Shown one piece after another: positions 13,878 to 40,946 of a stretch of 64,000 nucleotides of DNA. The stretch comes from an uncultured Pelagibacteraceae bacterium (lineage in GTDB: Bacteria > Pseudomonadota > Alphaproteobacteria > Pelagibacterales > AG-422-B15), in assembly GCA_902510025.1 (NCBI GenBank), contig CABWZX010000001.1:1133-65132 (forward strand), in the 5' to 3' direction. The position numbers were made by a program, and so were the translations under genes. The notes under the pieces were generated by a model. It saw nothing but the letters and a program-made list of their open reading frames with translations, did not search any database and was not told the origin of the DNA. The first letter of the stretch is position 1; each line of letters begins with the position of its first letter.

Positions 13878-13938
13878 TTACTCCTTTTTAGTGCTTCAAC
13901 ATCATGTTAGGCGCACAATACAGTTCAAATGCCTGGTT
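13878..13938 (-). ncRNA. Candidate SAM-II/SAM-V-like aptamer overlapping the bhmT RBS (translational control)
   Basis: Minus-strand RNA 'AGGCAUUUGAACUGUAUUGUGCGCCUAACAUGAUGUUGAAGCACUAAAAAGGAG'. It has an AGGC/GCCU stem, and loop 'GUGC' can pair with tail 'GCAC' just 5' of the SD, giving an H-type pseudoknot. Called from memory of the class, with no covariance model run. Confidence 0.45.
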
Positions 13939-13956
13939 TTTTATTGAGATTTATTC

Positions 13957-33054: not shown

Positions 33055-33638
33055 GTAGAATTTCTCCTCTTCAGAACGCTCATAACAAAGGTCTGTTTGG
33101 CGATTATCAAGAAAAAAATGAAGGTAATCTGTTAAAAATCAGAGAAATTACTGATGTAAATATTTATCAAGTTGTTCAATATAAAAAATCATCTGTTGCA
33201 ACTAGTAATATCCAGCTTGGTTCAATTAAATTACCTGCTAATGCAGCAGAAGTCTCAGTTGATGGGCAAACAAGAGTACAATGGTTTGCTCCGCGCTCAT
33301 GGATCATCTTTTCAAATGATAATAATATTTCATCTGTTATAGAAAATACCTTTAATAATGAAGATTTTGCAGTAACTGACGTCTCACACTCAAGAGCAAT
33401 CATTCAAATAAAAGGTGAAGATGCTTTAAATGTCCTTAAAAAAGGATGCCCTATCAATTTTAATGAGTTTAAGAAAAATAACTGTGTGAACTCAGTATAT
33501 CATGGAATTACAATCTCAGTTGATATGATAGATGACAGTCCTTTGACATTTAATTTAATGGCCTTAAGAAGTTTCAGTGAGTCCTTTCACCACGCTATTA
33601 CCGATGCAGCTCTTGAATATGGTTATTCAGGCCAGTAA
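33051..33638 (+). CDS. soxG: Sarcosine oxidase family, gamma subunit
   Basis: 195 aa with an ATGA overlap with soxA. Size and position match SoxG. The sequence itself is poorly diagnostic. Confidence 0.7.
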   Translation: MSRISPLQNAHNKGLFGDYQEKNEGNLLKIREITDVNIYQVVQYKKSSVATSNIQLGSIKLPANAAEVSVDGQTRVQWFAPRSWIIFSNDNNISSVIENTFNNEDFAVTDVSHSRAIIQIKGEDALNVLKKGCPINFNEFKKNNCVNSVYHGITISVDMIDDSPLTFNLMALRSFSESFHHAITDAALEYGYSGQ

Positions 33639-33862
33639 ATCGCTCTAAGTTATTGTTTCGACTCTTTTTTTTACCCCTACTTTTCTAACGATTTTATTTT
33701 GGTGAGTCTTTTCAAGAACTTATTTGAAAACGACCGCCTAACTCCCGCCTTCTCGTTAAAAAATTTGGTTGGTCCGACCTACGACAGGGGTTTTGTTCAA
33801 CCGACACCATCAATCTAAAATATGGGGGATCGTTGAGTATATAGGGGGGTTTGTTAACTAAA

Positions 33863-33893
33863 TTGCCTTTTCTTATATCTGAGATAAGATTTT
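33863..33893 (+). promoter_or_regulatory. Promoter-like cassette, copy 1 (TTGCCT-N16-TAAGAT), 6 nt before an ATG
   Basis: TTGCCT (33863-68), a 16-nt spacer containing TATC-TGA-GATA, then TAAGAT (33885-90). ATG at 33897 implies a leaderless or near-leaderless mRNA. 28/31 identical to copy 2. Confidence 0.4.
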
Positions 33894-33896
33894 GGT

Positions 33897-34685
33897 ATGA
33901 CTAGAGCAAAGTTTTTTTGGATTAATTTATTCTTCATAATTTTTACAAATCTAGCGGCAATATATTCATTTAGAGATGAAGGTTTACATGGAGTAATTGT
34001 TATAATTTCTCTCATTATTTTATTCATAATCTCAATTAAAAGACTGCAGAATATTGGAATTAGTAGTTTGTGGGTAATCTTATACCTTATACCTCTTGTT
34101 AATTTCTTTTTCTGGTTTTTTCTCCTTTTTAAATCTCCAAAGGATGCTAGGAAAAAAGCAATACAAAATAAAATCTCAGATCATCAAAAAGAACTCGATA
34201 GACTCAAGGATGAACTTGGTCAATATGAGCAAGATTCAAAAGTTATTTCTAGAATGGGAGAAGATAATTTAAAAAATATAACAACAAAATCTATACAAGG
34301 GTCAGCTCAAGTACCTCAAGAATTAAAAGCCATTATTCAAGGTGCTGGAATGTGCATTATGTTAGCTACATGGCATAAAAAAAATGCAGATTTAATTAAT
34401 GATCCTTATGTTATTGGATATGTATATGGATTTGCTGATAAAATTAATCAAGCATCCAATCTAAGGGTAGGATCATATGAAGCAAAGAGTGTAGTTGACT
34501 CAATGTATGCCTCTATTTTTGATAATTGGGATTTAGCATTTAAGCAGATGATTAAATATACCGAACTTGCTGATTCAACATTTCAATCTGCCGTTCAAGA
34601 TGGAGGGGATGATATGGGATTAGTTGTGAGAAAGAAAATTACAGTTGCTGAAAAACTATTAAATCATATGGACAGGAATTATTAA
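33897..34685 (+). CDS. Membrane protein with DUF805-like N-terminus, coiled-coil linker and unknown C-terminal domain
   Basis: N-terminal 'IKRLQNIGISSLWVILYLIPLVNFFFWFFLLF' resembles the DUF805 (YhaH/YhaI) motif. It is followed by 'HQKELDRLKDELGQYEQ' and a roughly 130-aa unrecognised domain. Confidence 0.5.
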   Translation: MTRAKFFWINLFFIIFTNLAAIYSFRDEGLHGVIVIISLIILFIISIKRLQNIGISSLWVILYLIPLVNFFFWFFLLFKSPKDARKKAIQNKISDHQKELDRLKDELGQYEQDSKVISRMGEDNLKNITTKSIQGSAQVPQELKAIIQGAGMCIMLATWHKKNADLINDPYVIGYVYGFADKINQASNLRVGSYEAKSVVDSMYASIFDNWDLAFKQMIKYTELADSTFQSAVQDGGDDMGLVVRKKITVAEKLLNHMDRNY

Positions 34686-34693
34686 TTGATTAA

Positions 34694-34927
34694 TTGCTTA
34701 TGACATTAGGAGATATTGGAATCATGATTATCTCATTATTTGCATGTGTGGGTTTTTATTATGTTTTTAAGGATCCAGTAGAAAGATTTCAACAATATAT
34801 TGATCGTTCCCCAATAATTAAAAAGTTCCTTGGCAGAGCATCTACTTTCTTTGGAGTTACCGTTTCATTAATTATTATTGGTGGAATTATTTTAAGCTTA
34901 GTTGAGCTGATCCAATGGATTCTATAA
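34694..34927 (+). CDS. Small two-TM membrane protein
   Basis: 77 aa with two hydrophobic spans. TTG start at 34694, or ATG at 34700. Confidence 0.4.
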   Translation: MLMTLGDIGIMIISLFACVGFYYVFKDPVERFQQYIDRSPIIKKFLGRASTFFGVTVSLIIIGGIILSLVELIQWIL

Positions 34928-34950
34928 ACCTGTCTAAACTAATGGACAGT

Positions 34951-34981
34951 TTGCCTTTTCTGGTATCTGGGATAAGATTTT
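34951..34981 (+). promoter_or_regulatory. Promoter-like cassette, copy 2 (TTGCCT-N16-TAAGAT)
   Basis: TTGCCT (34951-56), a 16-nt spacer containing TATC-TGG-GATA, then TAAGAT (34973-78). ATG at 34989. Confidence 0.4.
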
Positions 34982-34988
34982 AACTGCA

Positions 34989-35441
34989 ATGACACTAAAA
35001 GTCCCCATTGAATTAACCACTAAAATAAAAGCTTGGGCGCCTTCTTCTTACCCCGTTGATTTAAGTTATGGTGAATATGTTTTCGGAGGTGAAGCAGAAA
35101 CAGCTATTGCTCTTGCGAAGACAACTGATAATACTGAAGTGGTTGTGGGCTTTAATGTTCCATGTTCATGCTGGCAGGAAATTAGTAGCGCTAAATCAGA
35201 AATTGCCAGAGTCCACGATCTACCTGATATGATAGATAAGTTTTTGGATAGGAGAGCTAAAAGATTTTATGATTTAACAAGAGTCAATAAAACAAATGAA
35301 CGGAACCCCATAAGTGTAAAAATATTTAGGGCAAAGAAAATTGCATATTGGACTTTCATAATATTCATTCTCTATGGAATCTTTACGGGTGACCTTTGGG
35401 ACTTAATCCAGGCAATAAGTGTCCAAAATATATTTAAATAG
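34989..35441 (+). CDS. Hypothetical protein with C-terminal TM anchor
   Basis: 150 aa with a C-terminal 'IAYWTFIIFILYGIFTG' TM. No family recognised. Confidence 0.45.
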   Translation: MTLKVPIELTTKIKAWAPSSYPVDLSYGEYVFGGEAETAIALAKTTDNTEVVVGFNVPCSCWQEISSAKSEIARVHDLPDMIDKFLDRRAKRFYDLTRVNKTNERNPISVKIFRAKKIAYWTFIIFILYGIFTGDLWDLIQAISVQNIFK

Positions 35442-35462
35442 TTTTCAATTAACCACTACACT

Positions 35463-35798
35463 TTAATTCAAAACCTTCTTAAAATATTTATGATAAACTT
35501 CATTCTGAACCATCTCTTCGGTCATGTCTTCTTTGATTCTTTCAATCCTTTCATCATCATATCCTGAGATGCCATATTGAGGGTGAAGATATTTTCCCAC
35601 TCCTACATCTATGAACACCCATCTTTTCTTATCAAAACTGTATGCACCAAGACCAAAGTTTCCTGATTTAAGTTTCACAATTCCAAGTATATTTCCGTTA
35701 TCACTCATAAGGTTTGTAATTTCTAGTGGTTTAGCAAGTTCTCCATCATCCTTGCCTAGTTGAATATCTTTTACAAAAGCTTCTGGTTTTTTACTCAT
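35463..35798 (-). CDS. Hypothetical soluble protein
   Basis: 111 aa. Preceded on its strand by 'GGATAAGATTTTGAG-ATG' (35802-35813), which shares the GATAAGATTTT core of the two cassettes. Confidence 0.45.
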   Translation of the reverse strand: MSKKPEAFVKDIQLGKDDGELAKPLEITNLMSDNGNILGIVKLKSGNFGLGAYSFDKKRWVFIDVGVGKYLHPQYGISGYDDERIERIKEDMTEEMVQNEVYHKYFKKVLN

Positions 35799-35814
35799 CT
35801 CAAAATCTTATCCA

Positions 35815-36144
35815 TTAAAATAATTTTTCTATACGTTCACAATTCGCAGTAAAAAATTCATCTCGGGATCCATCATCTTCGATTCTCCACTGACGAAAAT
35901 ATCCAGAAAGTCTATCAATCTTTAGATACTCATTTGACGAATCAGCTTTGGCTACAATGAGATCATCTCTCACAAAGAACATATTGAACAAGTAATCATC
36001 AAGCCACATCTTTTGTTTATCAAGATTTATATCAAGCTCTTTGGTATGCAAACCCATTTCACCCTTACACGAAAGATATATCTCTTCAGCACTAGCCAAA
36101 GACATAAAGCCTAACAGTATCAATATAGAGAGTAGGTGTTTCAT
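35815..36144 (-). CDS. Small secreted protein
   Basis: Signal peptide 'MKHLLSILILLGFMSLASA' and two Cys in the mature part. Confidence 0.5.
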   Translation of the reverse strand: MKHLLSILILLGFMSLASAEEIYLSCKGEMGLHTKELDINLDKQKMWLDDYLFNMFFVRDDLIVAKADSSNEYLKIDRLSGYFRQWRIEDDGSRDEFFTANCERIEKLF

Positions 36145-36154
36145 TTTATTATTT

Positions 36155-36349
36155 TTACTTATCAGTCTTATTCTTAACTATCTTAGAGGGCGTCCAATCG
36201 TATTCATCCTCAACAACCATTCTATGCACTCTATTATTAGTCTTATCTATAACATAGTATTCAGTTTTTTTATCTCTGAGGTTAGGCTCTTTATCTGGGA
36301 TAGGTATTTGCCACCATTTTTTTTTAGTCATCTTTGCCAACATTTTCAC
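36155..36349 (-). CDS. Hypothetical small basic protein
   Basis: 64-aa ORF that overlaps the upstream ORF's 3' end by 26 nt. No recognisable domain. Confidence 0.3.
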   Translation of the reverse strand: MKMLAKMTKKKWWQIPIPDKEPNLRDKKTEYYVIDKTNNRVHRMVVEDEYDWTPSKIVKNKTDK

Positions 36350-36692
36350 TATGATACTGAGTGCTTAAAAGCGTTTTATTTGAAGCAATAAAGCCGAGTA
36401 TGAATCCTATTACGCCCCATGCATAGCCTTGTATAATCAATGTATCAAAAAAAATTATTAGGTAATTACTATTAAATAGCAAATAACCACATAAAGCTGC
36501 ACATGAAAGTCCTATAATGCTACCGATTATTTTTGCTCCAAACTCAGCATATAGTGATCCACGCATTCCTGCTCCAGAGCCCCACATAAATAAAGGACAA
36601 AATATAGCTACAGCCCACTCAATTGTTGTCCAGCCAACTAATACTGTGGTGAAAAAGTAAAATAAAGATATGTAAAGAAATCCTCTCGTCAT
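36324..36692 (-). CDS. Small polytopic membrane protein (4 TM)
   Basis: Hydrophobic Gly-rich TM segments. I prefer ATG at 36692 (RBS 'taaggt' 8 nt upstream) over the listed TTG at 36698. Confidence 0.45.
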   Translation of the reverse strand: MTRGFLYISLFYFFTTVLVGWTTIEWAVAIFCPLFMWGSGAGMRGSLYAEFGAKIIGSIIGLSCAALCGYLLFNSNYLIIFFDTLIIQGYAWGVIGFILGFIASNKTLLSTQYHSENVGKDD

Positions 36693-36879
36693 TTCCAAAC
36701 CTTACCCTATTAATCGTAATTATTTAATTACAAACTACCGCCAAAGTCTCCTACTATGTGGAGAAATCTAGATACGTTTTAAGAGAACTAATGTAACGAT
36801 AGTGAGTAAAATATCTTTGTGTACTGCCGTATTTATAGATATCATTAGATTAATTTAACGGTTATTCAGGCGAATAAAT

Positions 36880-37713
36880 CTAATTTATTGAAAAAGTATA
36901 AAGAATAAAATAAACCCATACCGGTATAAGTGTAACAAAATAATTTAACATCCAAGTAAATCCAATTATTCCTCCCCAATCTTCAGGATCATGACTAACA
37001 ATTCTTCTGTTAAGGGAATTTTTTAAACCTTCAAATGCTGTTGTTCTTAAATAATTTCCTGAACTATCATTTTGTAACTTATTTATTCTAGCTTTAATTG
37101 ATTTAAGGTGAAATATTTGCCACGGTAAGTAGCCTATTCCAAAAAGTAAGTTCAAATAAAGTAGGATTTCAAGATTATTAAAATCTATAAAGGTTAATAA
37201 AATAATTACACTGCATACGAAATTTAATAAAAAAATATTGAACCAGCCTATCTCCTCATAAAAATATAAATTTTCATTCTTTGTTAGTATTGCGCACCAC
37301 ACAAAAACTTGCGAAATGCTCACTTGTACAACCATTAACCAACTAAAAATATCTACAAATAAGAGTTCATGATCGTTAATTATTCTGATTACATAGCTAA
37401 ACATAAAGATGTATGAAATCTCAACAAAAGTTACAAAAAATCTTGTAATAAACACTGATGAAAATAAATTATCATGCAAGACTGCGTATGAAGAATAATT
37501 TACAGGGAATAGGCATCTGTATGCAGAAACCAAAAATAGAATTTGTGCAGGAATAAGAAGATAAGGATCTACAGATGAAATAGGAGAAACTATCGTCTGT
37601 AATAAGAAATATATATTAACTAAGGCTCCTATTTTTAAAGTCCATAATAAATACTTGTACATAATAAGTGCCTTGAGAAAACTAACTATTCTGGGATTTG
37701 TTGAGTCATACAA
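36880..37713 (-). CDS. Polytopic membrane protein of unknown function (about 8 TM), very AT-rich
   Basis: 277-aa Ile/Phe/Leu/Asn/Tyr-rich protein. The listed start overlaps aguA by 28 nt; an alternative ATG at 37662 removes the overlap. Confidence 0.5.
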   Translation of the reverse strand: MYDSTNPRIVSFLKALIMYKYLLWTLKIGALVNIYFLLQTIVSPISSVDPYLLIPAQILFLVSAYRCLFPVNYSSYAVLHDNLFSSVFITRFFVTFVEISYIFMFSYVIRIINDHELLFVDIFSWLMVVQVSISQVFVWCAILTKNENLYFYEEIGWFNIFLLNFVCSVIILLTFIDFNNLEILLYLNLLFGIGYLPWQIFHLKSIKARINKLQNDSSGNYLRTTAFEGLKNSLNRRIVSHDPEDWGGIIGFTWMLNYFVTLIPVWVYFILYTFSIN

Positions 37714-40097: not shown

Positions 40098-40946
40098 ATG
40101 ACAATCTCTTTATCAGATATTGTAAACTTAAATGAATACCCAATTCATGATTTAAATTCAAAAATTTATAAAGAATTAACGGTGTATTGTAAGAATGAAT
40201 TAGACACAATTGGATGTTGTGTACTCTCAAATTTTGTTCAACCTAATTCAATTAACAAGATGCTCAATGAAATTGATTCAAAACGAAGTCAGGTTTATTG
40301 GTCAGATGAAAGTCACAACCCTTATTTTACTAAAAAAGATTCTTCTTTCCCTAATAATCATCCAATTAACTCTTTTGGAGATCGCAACAATGGTTACCTT
40401 AATGGGGACCTCATACCAGAAGACTCGGACTTAAATACTTTATATCACAGAGAAGAACTAAAAGATTTAGTTTCCAATTGTTTGGATATCAAACCTTTAT
40501 TCCATTGGGCTGATCCATTGGCAAAAAATGTATATAACTGTATGGATCCTGGAAATTACTTTCCCTGGCACTTTGATAGTAATGAATTCACTTTAAGTAT
40601 CCTAATTCAAAAAGCAGATGAGGGAGGTAACTTTGAATACGTTCCTAATCTCAGAAAGCCTAATGATGAAAATTTTGAAGGGGTTAAAAGAGTTCTAGAT
40701 GGCGACAGAGAAAATGTTCGAGTTCTAGAATTAGAAGTTGGTGATCTTCAAATTTTTAAAGGTCGCTATTCTATGCACCGAGTAAGTAAAGTAGAAGGTA
40801 AAACGACAAGATATATTGCTCTCCCTACATATGCTTTAGATGGATGGAGAGTTAATACCCCAGAACACGCAAGAGTTGTTTATGGAAAAGTTCTTCCAAT
40901 ACATTATGAAAGAAATGTAGAAAGAGCCGATGGTCTAAAAGATTAA
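40098..40946 (+). CDS. 2OG/Fe(II)-dependent oxygenase, substrate unknown
   Basis: Facial triad candidates 'WHFDSNE' (H-x-D) and 'YSMHRVSKV' (distal His plus Arg). Starts 16 nt after the gmaS-like stop. Confidence 0.6.
   Translation: MTISLSDIVNLNEYPIHDLNSKIYKELTVYCKNELDTIGCCVLSNFVQPNSINKMLNEIDSKRSQVYWSDESHNPYFTKKDSSFPNNHPINSFGDRNNGYLNGDLIPEDSDLNTLYHREELKDLVSNCLDIKPLFHWADPLAKNVYNCMDPGNYFPWHFDSNEFTLSILIQKADEGGNFEYVPNLRKPNDENFEGVKRVLDGDRENVRVLELEVGDLQIFKGRYSMHRVSKVEGKTTRYIALPTYALDGWRVNTPEHARVVYGKVLPIHYERNVERADGLKD

What the first reader, a model, noticed from the sequence alone, without database searches (positions are those of the whole stretch)
33639..37713. About 4 kb ORFan islet of small membrane/secreted proteins between soxG and aguA
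Nearly every other gene in the window has a recognisable family. Here eight consecutive ORFs of 64-277 aa give no family call beyond a DUF805-like N-terminus on the first. They split into a plus-strand trio (33897, 34694, 34989) converging on a minus-strand set (36692 down to 35463), plus a very AT-rich 8-TM protein abutting aguA. Six of the eight have signal peptides or TM segments. The islet is bounded by the window's two least gene-like intergenic stretches (33639-33896 and 36699-36879). It also carries its own repeated promoter-like cassette. I saw no integrase, transposase, tRNA or flanking direct repeats, so it does not look like a classical mobile element. It fits the small hypervariable cell-envelope islets reported for streamlined marine genomes. 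It is my best candidate for an undescribed envelope, phage-interaction or toxin-immunity module. I cannot assign any function from sequence.
Basis: partly seen in the sequence, partly recalled or inferred. Interest (0 to 1): 0.65.

Follow-up and report, generated by a model that had tools for sequence, protein, structure and literature searches.

The report
Integrase-less mobile islet in SAR11
Seven of the eight small genes form a 3.2-kb piece of foreign DNA inserted exactly at the stop codon of soxG in one SAR11 lineage; it comes from a pool of small secreted and membrane protein genes that also travels on tiny integrase-bearing circular elements in the ocean.

Summary
The ORFs are real and mostly membrane or secreted, but the islet is O1-O7 (33,633-36,859), not eight genes. 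O8 (true start 37662, 260 aa) belongs to a widespread conserved membrane family and is retained with aguA in relatives.

The closest genome and 11 metagenome contigs of the sister lineage have soxG abutting O8, an empty site. The 12-nt core GGTTATTCAGGC duplicates soxG's 3' end, and the right copy keeps the ancestral ...GYSGE* ending.

O1, O4, O5 and O6 have relatives in 67 marine contigs at about 31% GC. These share:
- a conserved 113-nt control module;
- a TAAGAT-N6-ATG promoter cassette (four copies in the islet, the fourth reading TAAGGT);
- a signal peptide, MKHLLSIL..., fused to at least 33 unrelated mature domains.

The same module and cargo occur on 6.5-8.8-kb circular tyrosine-integrase elements and on primase/small-terminase satellite-like elements. 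They also occur in a second integrase-less islet family, flanked by an 18-nt repeat at the stop codon of a LivG-like gene.

I read the islet as an integrase-less, probably trans-mobilised (CIME/VEIME-like) cargo islet. The recombinase and the function of the cargo are unknown.

The parts
33621..33641 (+). attL-like direct repeat, copy 1: GGTTATTCAGGC|CAGTAAATC. It is the present 3' end and stop of soxG (...GYSGQ*).
   Evidence: (D10)
33642..33785 (.). Left arm of the islet (non-coding). It is homologous to the left arm of a second islet family (L083/L036). It contains the GACTC...GAGTC inverted repeat and the CCGCC..CCCGCC repeats.
   Evidence: identical in metagenome contigs L011/L012
33786..33899 (+). 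Conserved 113-nt control module: three GGGGG(T)TTGT boxes, CCCCATCAA, and promoter cassette P1 (TTGCCT-N16-TAAGAT-N6-ATG, 33863-33893).
33897..34685 (+). O1: DUF805-like 3-TM anchor, a coiled coil, and a rare C-terminal domain seen only in this element pool.
34694..34927 (+). O2: 77-aa 2-TM protein with no relatives found.
34930..34949 (+). Terminator-like hairpin followed by a T-run, ending the O1-O2 unit.
34951..34981 (+). Promoter cassette P2, the second copy of the 31-nt repeat, upstream of O3.
34989..35441 (+). O3: 150 aa with a C-terminal TM anchor; no convincing relatives.
35463..35798 (-). O4: 111-aa soluble protein, 81% identical to the C-terminal domain of P0004 in contig L013. Its own cassette P3 (GATAAGATTTT, 35802-35812) lies 3 nt before the ATG.
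35815..36144 (-). O5: secreted 109-aa protein. The signal-peptide module MKHLLSILILLGFMSLASA is at 36082-36144. O5 belongs to an approximately 111-aa family ending C..[LI]EKLF.
36155..36349 (-). O6: 64-aa basic soluble protein with a relative in L030.
36324..36698 (-). O7: 3-4-TM protein with no relatives. The likely start is the ATG at 36692, preceded by TAAGGT-N6 (cassette P4, 36699-36704).
36699..36859 (.). Right arm of the islet (non-coding), with the inverted repeat ATATCT...AGATAT (36811-36842). It is also present, slightly diverged, in metagenome contig L015.
36860..36880 (+). attR-like direct repeat, copy 2: GGTTATTCAGGC|GAATAAATC. It keeps the ancestral soxG ending GYSGE*.
36880..37662 (-). 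O8 (flank, not part of the islet): a conserved 260-aa polytopic membrane protein of a widespread family without a Pfam model, downstream of aguA.

Best explanation
O1-O7 with their two non-coding arms (about 33,633-36,859; net 3,239 bp) form an integrase-less accessory islet. It was inserted by site-specific recombination at the stop codon of soxG in one Pelagibacteraceae lineage.

Shown:
- relatives have an empty site;
- the insert is flanked by a duplicated soxG 3' end;
- the left copy supplies a new last codon and stop (E to Q);
- the right copy keeps the ancestral ending.

The islet belongs to a family of small SAR11-type islets with conserved left and right arms. The family has a 113-bp DNA control module and promoter cassettes in which a -10-like TAAGAT sits 6 nt before the ATG. 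From that spacing I infer leaderless transcripts.

The cargo is a shuffled set of small secreted, lipoprotein and membrane proteins. Many share one signal peptide (MKHLLSIL...). The same module and cargo families also ride on two other element types:
- 6.5-8.8-kb circular tyrosine-integrase elements, whose probable attP is a tRNA-like 3' end;
- primase/small-terminase satellite-like elements.

Inferred: the islet is natively integrase-less and is moved in trans by a recombinase encoded elsewhere, in the manner of a CIME, an IMEX or an integrase-less VEIME. It exchanges cargo with the integrase-bearing elements by recombination at the shared module, promoter and signal-peptide sequences. Its products act at the envelope or periplasm, most plausibly in surface variation or phage interference.
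For: Empty site.
- L001 (flanks 87-98% aa identity) and L016-L026 have the soxG stop 2 nt from the O8 stop.
- The occupied junctions recur in other samples: L011/L012 and L015.

Flanking repeats.
- The repeat has a 12-nt exact core, and attR encodes the ancestral GYSGE*.
- A second, independent integrase-less islet (L083 plus L036, about 4 kb) has an 18-nt exact repeat, GCGTATATGGGGGAGTAA, at the stop of a LivG-like gene. Its left arm is homologous to the window's.
- A minimal one-gene version, L084, sits at the same site.
- The two targets share GGAGAATAAA.CTAA.

Module and promoter cassette.
- The module has 17 full and about 24 partial copies, always directly upstream of cargo genes.
- It shows no RNA covariation.
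- TAAGATTT is followed by an ORF start within 5-10 nt at 41 of 76 sites, 26 of them at exactly 6 nt.

Cargo pool.
- 98 MKHLLSIL ORFs occur in 67 contigs. The 81 of at least 60 aa fall into 33 mature-domain families, and 15 are truncated stubs.
- Conservation starts at the ATG and ends at the cleavage site.
- O1, O4, O5 and O6 have relatives there.

Mobile carriers.
- L074 is exactly periodic at 8,815 bp and L096 at 6,503 bp.
- The integrase matches PHROG phrog_1 at 9.8e-20 and Pfam Arm-DNA-bind_3 at 1e-8.
- A tRNA-like attP core is shared across integrase lineages.
- L059 has a small terminase, a Toprim primase and an AAA_25 helicase; L081 and L053 have Phage_integrase with Prim-Pol.

Literature. 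Integrative satellites (VEIMEs) occur in Pelagibacter and about 20% of them lack an integrase (PMC9618062). The SAR11 flexible genome is enriched in signal-peptide proteins (PMC11796062).
Against: - No recombinase that recognises the soxG-type site was identified. The only integrase family found with this cargo appears to target a tRNA-like site, not gene 3' ends.
- No circular or excised form of the window's islet was seen, and no second chromosomal location for it.
- O2, O3 and O7, and the right arm, have no relatives in the pool, so part of the islet may have another origin.
- The function of the cargo is untested. There are no PADLOC, PHROG or Pfam hits for the window's ORFs, and the O1 structure model is unusable at pLDDT 55.
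- None of these elements was found in IMG/VR or GenBank phages, so virion packaging is not supported here.
- The signal-peptide set was ascertained with an exact 21-mer, which inflates apparent DNA conservation.
Confidence: 0.7

Rival explanations
1. It is a decayed remnant. A complete integrase-bearing element integrated at soxG and later lost its integrase, excisionase and replication genes by internal deletion. The islet is now immobile junk or domesticated cargo.
For: The module that directly follows the integrase stop codon in L070, L074 and L038 lies here 145 nt inside attL, where an integrase gene would be expected. No integrase is present in the 64-kb window. Loss of recombination genes is the usual origin of CIMEs (my own knowledge).
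Against: Three integrase-less islets (the window, L083/L036 and L084) have clean arms and cargo ranging from about 1 to 4 kb. That would require the same precise loss three times. No integrase remnant is detectable in the left arm. The known integrase-bearing relatives carry a tRNA-like attP, not a soxG-like one.
Confidence: 0.25
2. O1-O7 is ancestral, and the sister lineage lost it by recombination between the two direct repeats.
For: The empty-site sequence is compatible with a hybrid of the two repeat copies. More distant relatives have different genes after soxG, so the direction of change cannot be set by an outgroup.
Against: A duplicated soxG 3' end at the far side of the segment still requires an original insertion. 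The module and cargo families occur on mobile circular elements and at other chromosomal sites. O1-O7 are extremely rare in 5.8 billion proteins, whereas the flanking genes are common.
Confidence: 0.08
3. It is a dedicated toxin-immunity or anti-phage defence module, one of the first reader's suggestions.
For: It has small membrane and secreted proteins in convergent operons. A relative (L074) carries a superinfection-immunity domain protein (Pfam 1.6e-6, PHROG 4.4e-10). Secreted SNase nucleases are among the pool's cargo. Satellites often carry interference genes (PMC9618062).
Against: No toxin, nuclease, ATPase or known defence domain occurs in O1-O7. The only PADLOC hit is a marginal one for O6, at E 0.002. 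The gene set is not conserved as a unit: each related contig has a different combination.
Confidence: 0.12
4. It is a prophage remnant or an integron-type cassette array.
For: It has small unannotated genes, its own promoters, and repeated sequences between genes.
Against: No PHROG, GenBank-phage or IMG/VR match was found for any ORF or for the DNA. There is no IntI and no attC-like imperfect palindromes between cassettes. The repeats found are promoter-like and sit upstream of genes.
Confidence: 0.03

Closest known systems
VEIMEs: virion-encapsidated integrative mobile elements, marine phage satellites (Eppley et al. 2022, PMC9618062)
   Same: They are small (under 5 to 16.8 kb) integrative elements found integrated in Pelagibacter. 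Their cargo is largely unannotated, and about 20% lack an integrase. Relatives of this islet include exactly periodic (circular or concatemeric) 6.5-8.8-kb contigs with a tyrosine integrase, and others with a small terminase and a primase.
   Different: Packaging in virions is not shown: there are no IMG/VR or phage-database matches. The window's copy has no integrase, replication or packaging gene. I could not compare sequences with the published VEIME set.
CIMEs (cis-mobilizable elements) and IMEX elements: att-flanked elements without their own recombinase (my own knowledge)
   Same: The islet has cargo bounded by att-like direct repeats and no recombinase. It is related to recombinase-bearing elements that share internal sequences.
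   Different: No cognate integrase with a matching attP is known. Mobilisation has not been shown. The site is not dif-like.
P4-like / PICI-type satellites and tycheposons, which integrate at tRNA or tmRNA 3' ends (Hackl et al. 2023, my own knowledge; PMC11876622)
   Same: The integrase-bearing relatives have an Arm-DNA-bind_3 tyrosine integrase and a tRNA-like 3' end in the int-proximal non-coding region.
   Different: The window's islet sits at the 3' end of a protein-coding gene. It has no tRNA fragment and none of the hallmark genes.
SAR11 flexible genomic islands and small singleton islands (PMC11796062; bioRxiv 10.64898/2026.04.03.716430)
   Same: It is a small additive island of a few unannotated genes, enriched in signal-peptide proteins, in a conserved backbone.
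   Different: Those surveys reported almost no canonical mobile elements in the islands. Here the boundaries, the target duplication and the link to integrase elements are explicit.
Multigene surface-protein families with a conserved signal-peptide-coding 5' end and variable mature parts, such as Mycoplasma vlp/vsa and Borrelia lipoprotein paralogues (my own knowledge)
   Same: One signal peptide is conserved at the DNA level, from the ATG to the cleavage site, and is fused to many unrelated mature domains. Truncated stubs are also present.
   Different: There is no evidence of phase variation or site-specific inversion. The genes are dispersed over mobile elements and islets rather than clustered in one expression locus.

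Membership tests
Site-specifically integrated genomic islet (att-flanked) | Empty site in close relatives | tested here: met
   12 of 12 sister-lineage loci have soxG abutting O8.
Site-specifically integrated genomic islet (att-flanked) | Flanking direct repeats that duplicate the target | tested here: met
   The repeat is 19/21 with a 12-nt exact core at both junctions. The right copy keeps the ancestral soxG end. An 18-nt repeat flanks the second islet family.
Site-specifically integrated genomic islet (att-flanked) | Own integrase or recombinase | tested here: not met
   No integrase homologue occurs in the 64-kb window, and the islet ORFs have no Pfam or PHROG integrase hit.
VEIME / phage satellite | Recovered as concatemers from virions | not testable with these tools
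   Two related contigs are exactly periodic, but IMG/VR and the phage databases give no match.
VEIME / phage satellite | Integration, replication or packaging genes (integrase, primase, small terminase, AlpA) | tested here: not met
   These are absent from the window's islet. They are present only in relatives L074, L059, L081 and L053.
Tycheposon / P4-like island | Integration at a tRNA or tmRNA gene with a partial tRNA repeat | tested here: not met
   The window has no tRNA and the target is the soxG stop codon. Only the integrase-bearing relatives carry a tRNA-like core.
Integron cassette array | IntI plus attC sites between promoterless cassettes | tested here: not met
   There is no IntI. 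The repeats are promoter-like cassettes upstream of genes, not attC palindromes.
CIME-like (cis-mobilizable) element | att sites matching those of a co-resident integrase-bearing element | tested here: inconclusive
   The islet shares the module and cargo with integrase elements, but their attP core differs from the soxG-type site.
DUF805 (O1 N-terminus) | Pfam PF05656 at or above its gathering score | tested here: inconclusive
   O1 scores 24.7 bits against a cut-off of 25.7. Homologue P0002 carries the precomputed PF05656 call. An O1-based profile finds 345 proteins with E-value up to 0.001, nearly all matching through the N-terminal region; they were not checked against PF05656.
Known anti-phage defence systems (PADLOC) | Significant match to a defence-system protein model | tested here: not met
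   The only hit is a marginal one for O6, at E 0.0022.
Structured cis-regulatory RNA (for the 113-nt module) | Conserved secondary structure with covariation | tested here: not met
   Across 15 copies the covariation term is +0.24 and the stems are invariant or broken. No Rfam hit was found.

The most novel reading that the evidence does not exclude
The islet is one instance of an undescribed, non-integron gene-cassette system for the SAR11 secretome.
- Small secreted, lipoprotein and membrane genes carry standardised 5' ends: a leaderless TAAGAT-N6-ATG promoter cassette and a DNA-conserved signal-peptide module.
- These 5' ends act as recombination handles, so the genes are shuffled between integrase-bearing satellites and integrase-less islets.
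- The islets are delivered to the stop codons of housekeeping genes that end in GGAGAATAAA.CTAA.
- Delivery is by a recombinase not encoded on the islet, possibly of host or helper origin.
Probability: 0.2. Interest if true: 0.8.

Novelty: new variant of a known kind. Interest (0 to 1): 0.55.

Why it matters
SAR11 is the most abundant bacterial group in the ocean. It has long been described as almost free of mobile elements, and a recent survey of its genomic islands found no canonical mobile elements and only one integrase (PMC11796062).

This locus gives a base-pair-resolved example of how a small accessory islet enters a streamlined SAR11 genome. It inserts at a gene's stop codon and replaces that stop with its own. 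It also ties the islet to a pool of tiny integrase and satellite-like elements that circulate a diversified set of secreted and envelope proteins.

The conserved module, the promoter cassette and the shared signal peptide are simple sequence handles. With them the whole family could be mined from metagenomes. That would make two questions testable: what this mobile secretome does, with phage evasion, surface variation and nutrient scavenging as candidates, and which recombinase moves integrase-less islets.

Tried and rejected
- **Structured RNA or riboswitch in the two 'least gene-like' intergenic stretches.** Folding z-scores are -0.29 and -0.97. There are no Rfam hits. Fifteen homologous copies of the module show no covariation.
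- **Phage origin.** tblastn and blastn against GenBank phages found nothing. PHROGs gave no significant hit. Four IMG/VR scans were also empty.
- **Integrase remnant in the left arm.** No protein or nucleotide similarity to the 3' ends of the integrase genes is convincing.
- **Shared attP between the window's arms and the integrase-bearing elements.** Local alignment found only L083. Motif scans were inconclusive.
- **Structure-based function.** The O1 model reached pLDDT 55 and is unusable. The O8 model is excellent (pLDDT 92.6) but has no significant PDB fold match; the best are generic 7-TM bundles at E 0.12.
- **Concatenated-query protein search.** The query for O2, O7 and O8 was swamped by O8 hits, so O2 and O7 were tested only against the fetched loci.
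- **Composition as an island signal.** GC and skew do not set the islet apart from the rest of the window.

Full report
**What is in the window**

The window has about 33% GC and carries a SAM-V riboswitch. Its closest relatives are Pelagibacteraceae single-cell and metagenome-assembled genomes, so it comes from a SAR11-type genome.

The eight ORFs exist as described. None reaches a curated Pfam or NCBIfam threshold. The only near-hit is the DUF805-like N-terminus of O1, at 24.7 bits against a cut-off of 25.7. A hydropathy scan gives:
- TM segments in O1 (3), O2 (2), O3 (1, C-terminal), O7 (3-4) and O8 (at least 5);
- a signal peptide in O5;
- no hydrophobic segment in O4 or O6.

There is no tRNA in the window, no Rfam family in the islet and no compositional anomaly.

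**The islet is an insertion with a flanking repeat**

GGTTATTCAGGCCAGTAAATC at 33621-33641 is the end of soxG including its stop. GGTTATTCAGGCGAATAAATC at 36860-36880 abuts the stop of O8.

In the closest GTDB genome (L001, SAG AG-430-P10) the flanking proteins are 87-98% identical to the window's. There, soxG is followed after 2 nt by the O8 homologue, and none of O1-O7 is present. Eleven metagenome or genome contigs that carry an O8 homologue of 88-89% identity show the same empty site: CTTGAATATGGTTATTCAGGAGAATAAAACTAATTTACTG.

Aligning the empty site with the two junctions gives three results:
- The 12-nt core GGTTATTCAGGC is the duplicated segment.
- The right copy continues as the ancestral soxG ending (GAA TAA, ...GYSGE*) and then the ancestral downstream sequence.
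- The left copy continues with islet DNA that supplies a new last codon and stop (CAG TAA, ...GYSGQ*).

The net insertion is 3,239 bp.

Both occupied junctions recur in independent metagenomes. L011 and L012 have soxG 100% identical and end 141 nt into the islet. L015 has O8 99% identical and ends about 115 nt into the right arm.

The left-hand contigs stop a few bases before the conserved module described below. That is what a sequence repeated across a community would do to a short-read assembly (inference).

**O8 belongs to the backbone**

O8 stays next to aguA in every relative that lacks the islet. Its real start is the ATG at 37662, giving 260 aa; the homologues are 260 aa.

It has at least 239 homologues at about 50% identity, including Binataceae, Chloroflexota and deltaproteobacterial MAGs, none with a Pfam domain. 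A 45-sequence alignment shows many invariant polar residues. It gives a confident all-helical polytopic model, with pLDDT 92.6 and pTM 0.89. That model has no significant match among solved structures; the best are generic 7-TM bundles with TM-score about 0.5 and E 0.12.

In other Pelagibacterales the O8 homologue sits between DoxX and CIA30-like genes, so it has no fixed link to aguA. It is a conserved protein of unknown function, not an ORFan.

**How rare the islet genes are, and where their relatives live**

| ORF | Relatives found |
|---|---|
| O1 | Two homologue clusters in 5.8 billion proteins: P0002 (78%) and P0003 (35%, C-terminal domain only). An exhaustive profile search of 1.84 billion representatives finds the C-terminal domain in only three clusters. 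The N-terminus matches through the DUF805-like membrane region. |
| O3 | None in a joint search of O3 to O6. |
| O4 | The same search returned one protein, P0004, whose C-terminal 100 residues are 81% identical to O4. |
| O5 | None in that search; family members appear in the metagenome contigs described below. |
| O6 | None in that search; one relative in L030. |

dN/dS is 0.28 for O1 and 0.21 for O4 against these relatives, so they are genuine genes.

P0004 lies on a 6.8-kb contig (L013) full of small co-directional genes. Four of them begin with MKHLLSIL..., almost the same signal peptide as O5, and a fifth (an SNase) begins with the close variant MKLLLSIL. All are fused to unrelated mature parts, among them the SNase and a Sel1 lipoprotein.

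The O1 homologue in L027 is followed directly by such an ORF. The one in L028/L029 is followed by a stub, MKHLLSI-stop.

**The shared signal peptide**

A metagenome scan with the first 21 nt of O5 (two positions degenerate) returned 67 contigs at about 31% GC, many with 2-4 copies. With three earlier contigs (L013, L027, L028) they hold 98 ORFs with this start. The 81 of at least 60 aa fall into 33 mature-domain families, with both Sec-type and lipobox versions. Fifteen are truncated stubs.

The largest family has 12 members, is about 111 aa long, has two conserved Cys and ends C..[LI]EKLF. It includes O5.

Nucleotide conservation begins exactly at the ATG. Upstream it is at background level, about 0.44. 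It decays to background just after the predicted cleavage site. For codons 8-21 the conservation at codon positions 1, 2 and 3 is 0.71, 0.76 and 0.61, against 0.38, 0.41 and 0.46 afterwards.

So the peptide is selected, and third positions are also more conserved than background. The exact-21-mer ascertainment inflates this figure, however. I treat recombination at this block as a hypothesis only.

**The control module and promoter cassette**

The 113 nt upstream of O1 (33786-33899) recur at 70-85% identity in at least 20 of these contigs, always ending at the start codon of a cargo gene. An HMM search finds 17 full copies and about 24 partial copies.

The 5' half has three GGGGG(T)TTGT boxes and a CCCCATCAA box. 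Fifteen full copies show no covariation, so it is a DNA element and not a structured RNA.

Across the loci and the window, 41 of 76 distinct TAAGATTT sites are followed within 5-10 nt by the start of an ORF of at least 40 aa. In 26 cases the distance is exactly 6 nt. This places the expected transcription start at or next to the A of the ATG. I therefore infer leaderless mRNAs; this is not shown.

In the window, exact GATAAGATTTT occurs three times against 0.21 expected, and 0 of 100 shuffles reach three. All three sites lie 3-7 nt before the ATGs of O1, O3 and O4. O7's ATG at 36692 is preceded by TAAGGT-N6. A terminator-like hairpin at 34930-34949 separates the O1-O2 unit from O3.

**Mobile carriers of the same module and cargo**

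*Circular integrase elements.* L074 (14,027 bp) is exactly periodic: 8,815 bp, with 5,175 of 5,175 overlapping bases identical. L096 has a period of 6,503 bp. These are circular or concatemeric elements.

L074 encodes:
- a 457-aa tyrosine integrase (Arm-DNA-bind_3 9.8e-9; PHROG integrase 9.8e-20);
- a small protein I take to be Xis/AlpA-like from its size and position (no family hit);
- an HNH endonuclease;
- a superinfection-immunity domain membrane protein (Pfam 1.6e-6; PHROG 4.4e-10);
- three MKHLLSIL proteins, including an O5-family member;
- a free-standing O1 C-terminal-domain protein.

Integrase homologues at 36-99% identity occur in eight further contigs. In L070, L074 and L038 the module follows the integrase stop codon directly.

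The roughly 750-nt region between p118 and int holds a tRNA-like 3' end (T-arm, acceptor, CCA). It is exact over 32 nt in L074, L070, L085 and L038, and nearly so in four other integrase lineages. It is probably the attP core. ARAGORN calls no tRNA there, and Rfam gives only a weak tmRNA 3' match.

*Satellite-like elements.* Other carriers of MKHLLSIL cargo have an Sf6-like small terminase, a Toprim primase and an AAA_25 helicase (L059), or a Phage_integrase with Prim-Pol/AAA_25 (L081, L053).

*Chromosomal copies.* A module plus cargo lies beside glycosyltransferase and ABC-exporter genes in L075. A single SNase cassette lies between a dehydrogenase gene and putA in L077.

None of these sequences is in IMG/VR or GenBank phages.

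**A second integrase-less islet family**

L083 shows an element left arm homologous to the window's, 67% identical over 290 nt. It abuts the stop codon of a LivG-like ABC ATPase gene (...AYMGE*). L036 is the same element, 97% identical in the overlap.

L036 runs through a module, an O5-family gene and other MKHLLSIL genes to a right junction. There GCGTATATGGGGGAGTAA recurs, an 18-nt exact repeat, followed by a host acyltransferase-like gene. It has no integrase.

L084 is a minimal version at the same site: left arm, promoter cassette, one MKHLLSIL gene, the same right arm, then attR.

The two target sites share GGAGAATAAA.CTAA: GGTTATTCAGGAGAATAAAACTAATTTAC for soxG and GCATATATGGGAGAATAAATCTAAAGTAC for the LivG-like gene. 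Both genes end in Gly-Glu-stop, which suggests sequence-specific targeting. This is an inference from two sites only.

**Interpretation**

The structural conclusion is well supported. O1-O7 is a lineage-specific, att-flanked, integrase-less insertion drawn from a mobile pool of secreted and envelope cargo.

Two further points are inference:
- *How it got there.* The integrase family found with this cargo appears to use a tRNA-like site, not a gene stop codon. I found no circular form of the window's islet and no cognate recombinase. Three integrase-less islets share clean arms while their cargo ranges from about 1 to 4 kb. For that reason I favour a natively integrase-less, trans-mobilised element (CIME- or IMEX-like, or an integrase-less VEIME) over repeated decay of complete elements.
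- *What it does.* There is no direct evidence. The envelope location of most products, the superinfection-immunity protein in a relative, and the satellite-like carriers point weakly to surface variation or phage interference. PADLOC, PHROGs and Pfam give nothing for the window's ORFs.

**Literature context**

Integrative satellites packaged as concatemers (VEIMEs) are known from Pelagibacter, and about 20% of them lack integrases (PMC9618062). Tyrosine-recombinase elements are frequent in Pelagibacter DNA recovered from vesicles and virus-like particles (PMC11876622).

A SAR11 pangenome study found no canonical mobile elements in its genomic islands. It also found more signal-peptide proteins in the flexible genome than in the core, 13.1% against 4.6% (PMC11796062). 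A 2026 preprint counts 2,647 small singleton islands in 135 closed genomes.

In the papers I searched I found no description of the module, the TAAGAT-N6-ATG cassette, the shared MKHLLSIL signal peptide or stop-codon targeting.

**Verdict**

This is a new variant of a known kind, a small integrative island or satellite-derived islet. Its family-level regularities are worth following up.

Noticed in passing
window 13878-13943 (-): A SAM-V riboswitch scores 76.9 bits (gathering score 41). It is the only Rfam family in the window and a marker of SAR11-type genomes.
   Followed up: no
window 36880-37662 (-): O8 belongs to a widespread family of about 260-aa polytopic membrane proteins, about 50% identical across phyla. 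The family has no Pfam model and many invariant polar residues (R49, C50, R74, E81, R93, Q113, E136, E137, H185). The AF2 model has pLDDT 92.6 and no significant solved-fold match. It is a good candidate for a new family definition.
   Followed up: partly
L074 7887-8000 and 8787-8844: An HNH endonuclease gene on the opposite strand is inserted inside the module. It is flanked by a 58-nt duplication of the module's 5' half. L030, L085 and L070 also have extra partial module copies bracketing inserted genes. The module may therefore itself be a landing site for secondary insertions.
   Followed up: partly
L028 about 50-100: The 5' 38 nt of a tRNA-Phe(GAA)-like sequence lies about 190 nt upstream of an O1-family gene that has the same promoter cassette. 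After the anticodon loop the sequence diverges, and ARAGORN calls no tRNA. tRNA-Phe is reported as a boundary of the SAR11 hypervariable region (bioRxiv 10.64898/2026.04.03.716430).
   Followed up: no
L059 1-1313 and 8670-9310: Two different integrases of the same family (43% and 57% identical to the L074 integrase) sit at the two ends of one 9.3-kb contig. This suggests tandem accretion of two elements at one site.
   Followed up: no
L077 556-963: A single MKHLLSIL-SNase (secreted thermonuclease-like) cassette sits alone between a 2-hydroxyacid dehydrogenase gene and putA. The same SNase cargo recurs in L013, L044 and L081.
   Followed up: partly
window 40098-40946 (+): The gene after the glutamine-synthetase-like gene matches Pfam HalD/WelO5 (Fe/2OG halogenase-like) in the annotation of the related contigs. 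This is unusual for a streamlined genome.
   Followed up: no
L002-L010, downstream of soxG: In more distant Pelagibacterales, soxG is followed by a 340-aa gene I take to be an alpha/beta-hydrolase, instead of O8-aguA. In L010 about 3 kb of what look like glutamate-synthase-like genes follow. These identities are read from the translations, not from a family search. The soxG 3' flank is a recurrent break in synteny at several evolutionary depths.
   Followed up: partly
window 33642-33720; L083 115-160: The islet's left arm starts with an inverted repeat, GACTC...GAGTC. In L083 it forms a clean 8-bp stem followed by a T-run. The element may therefore give the interrupted host gene both a stop codon and a terminator.
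   Followed up: no
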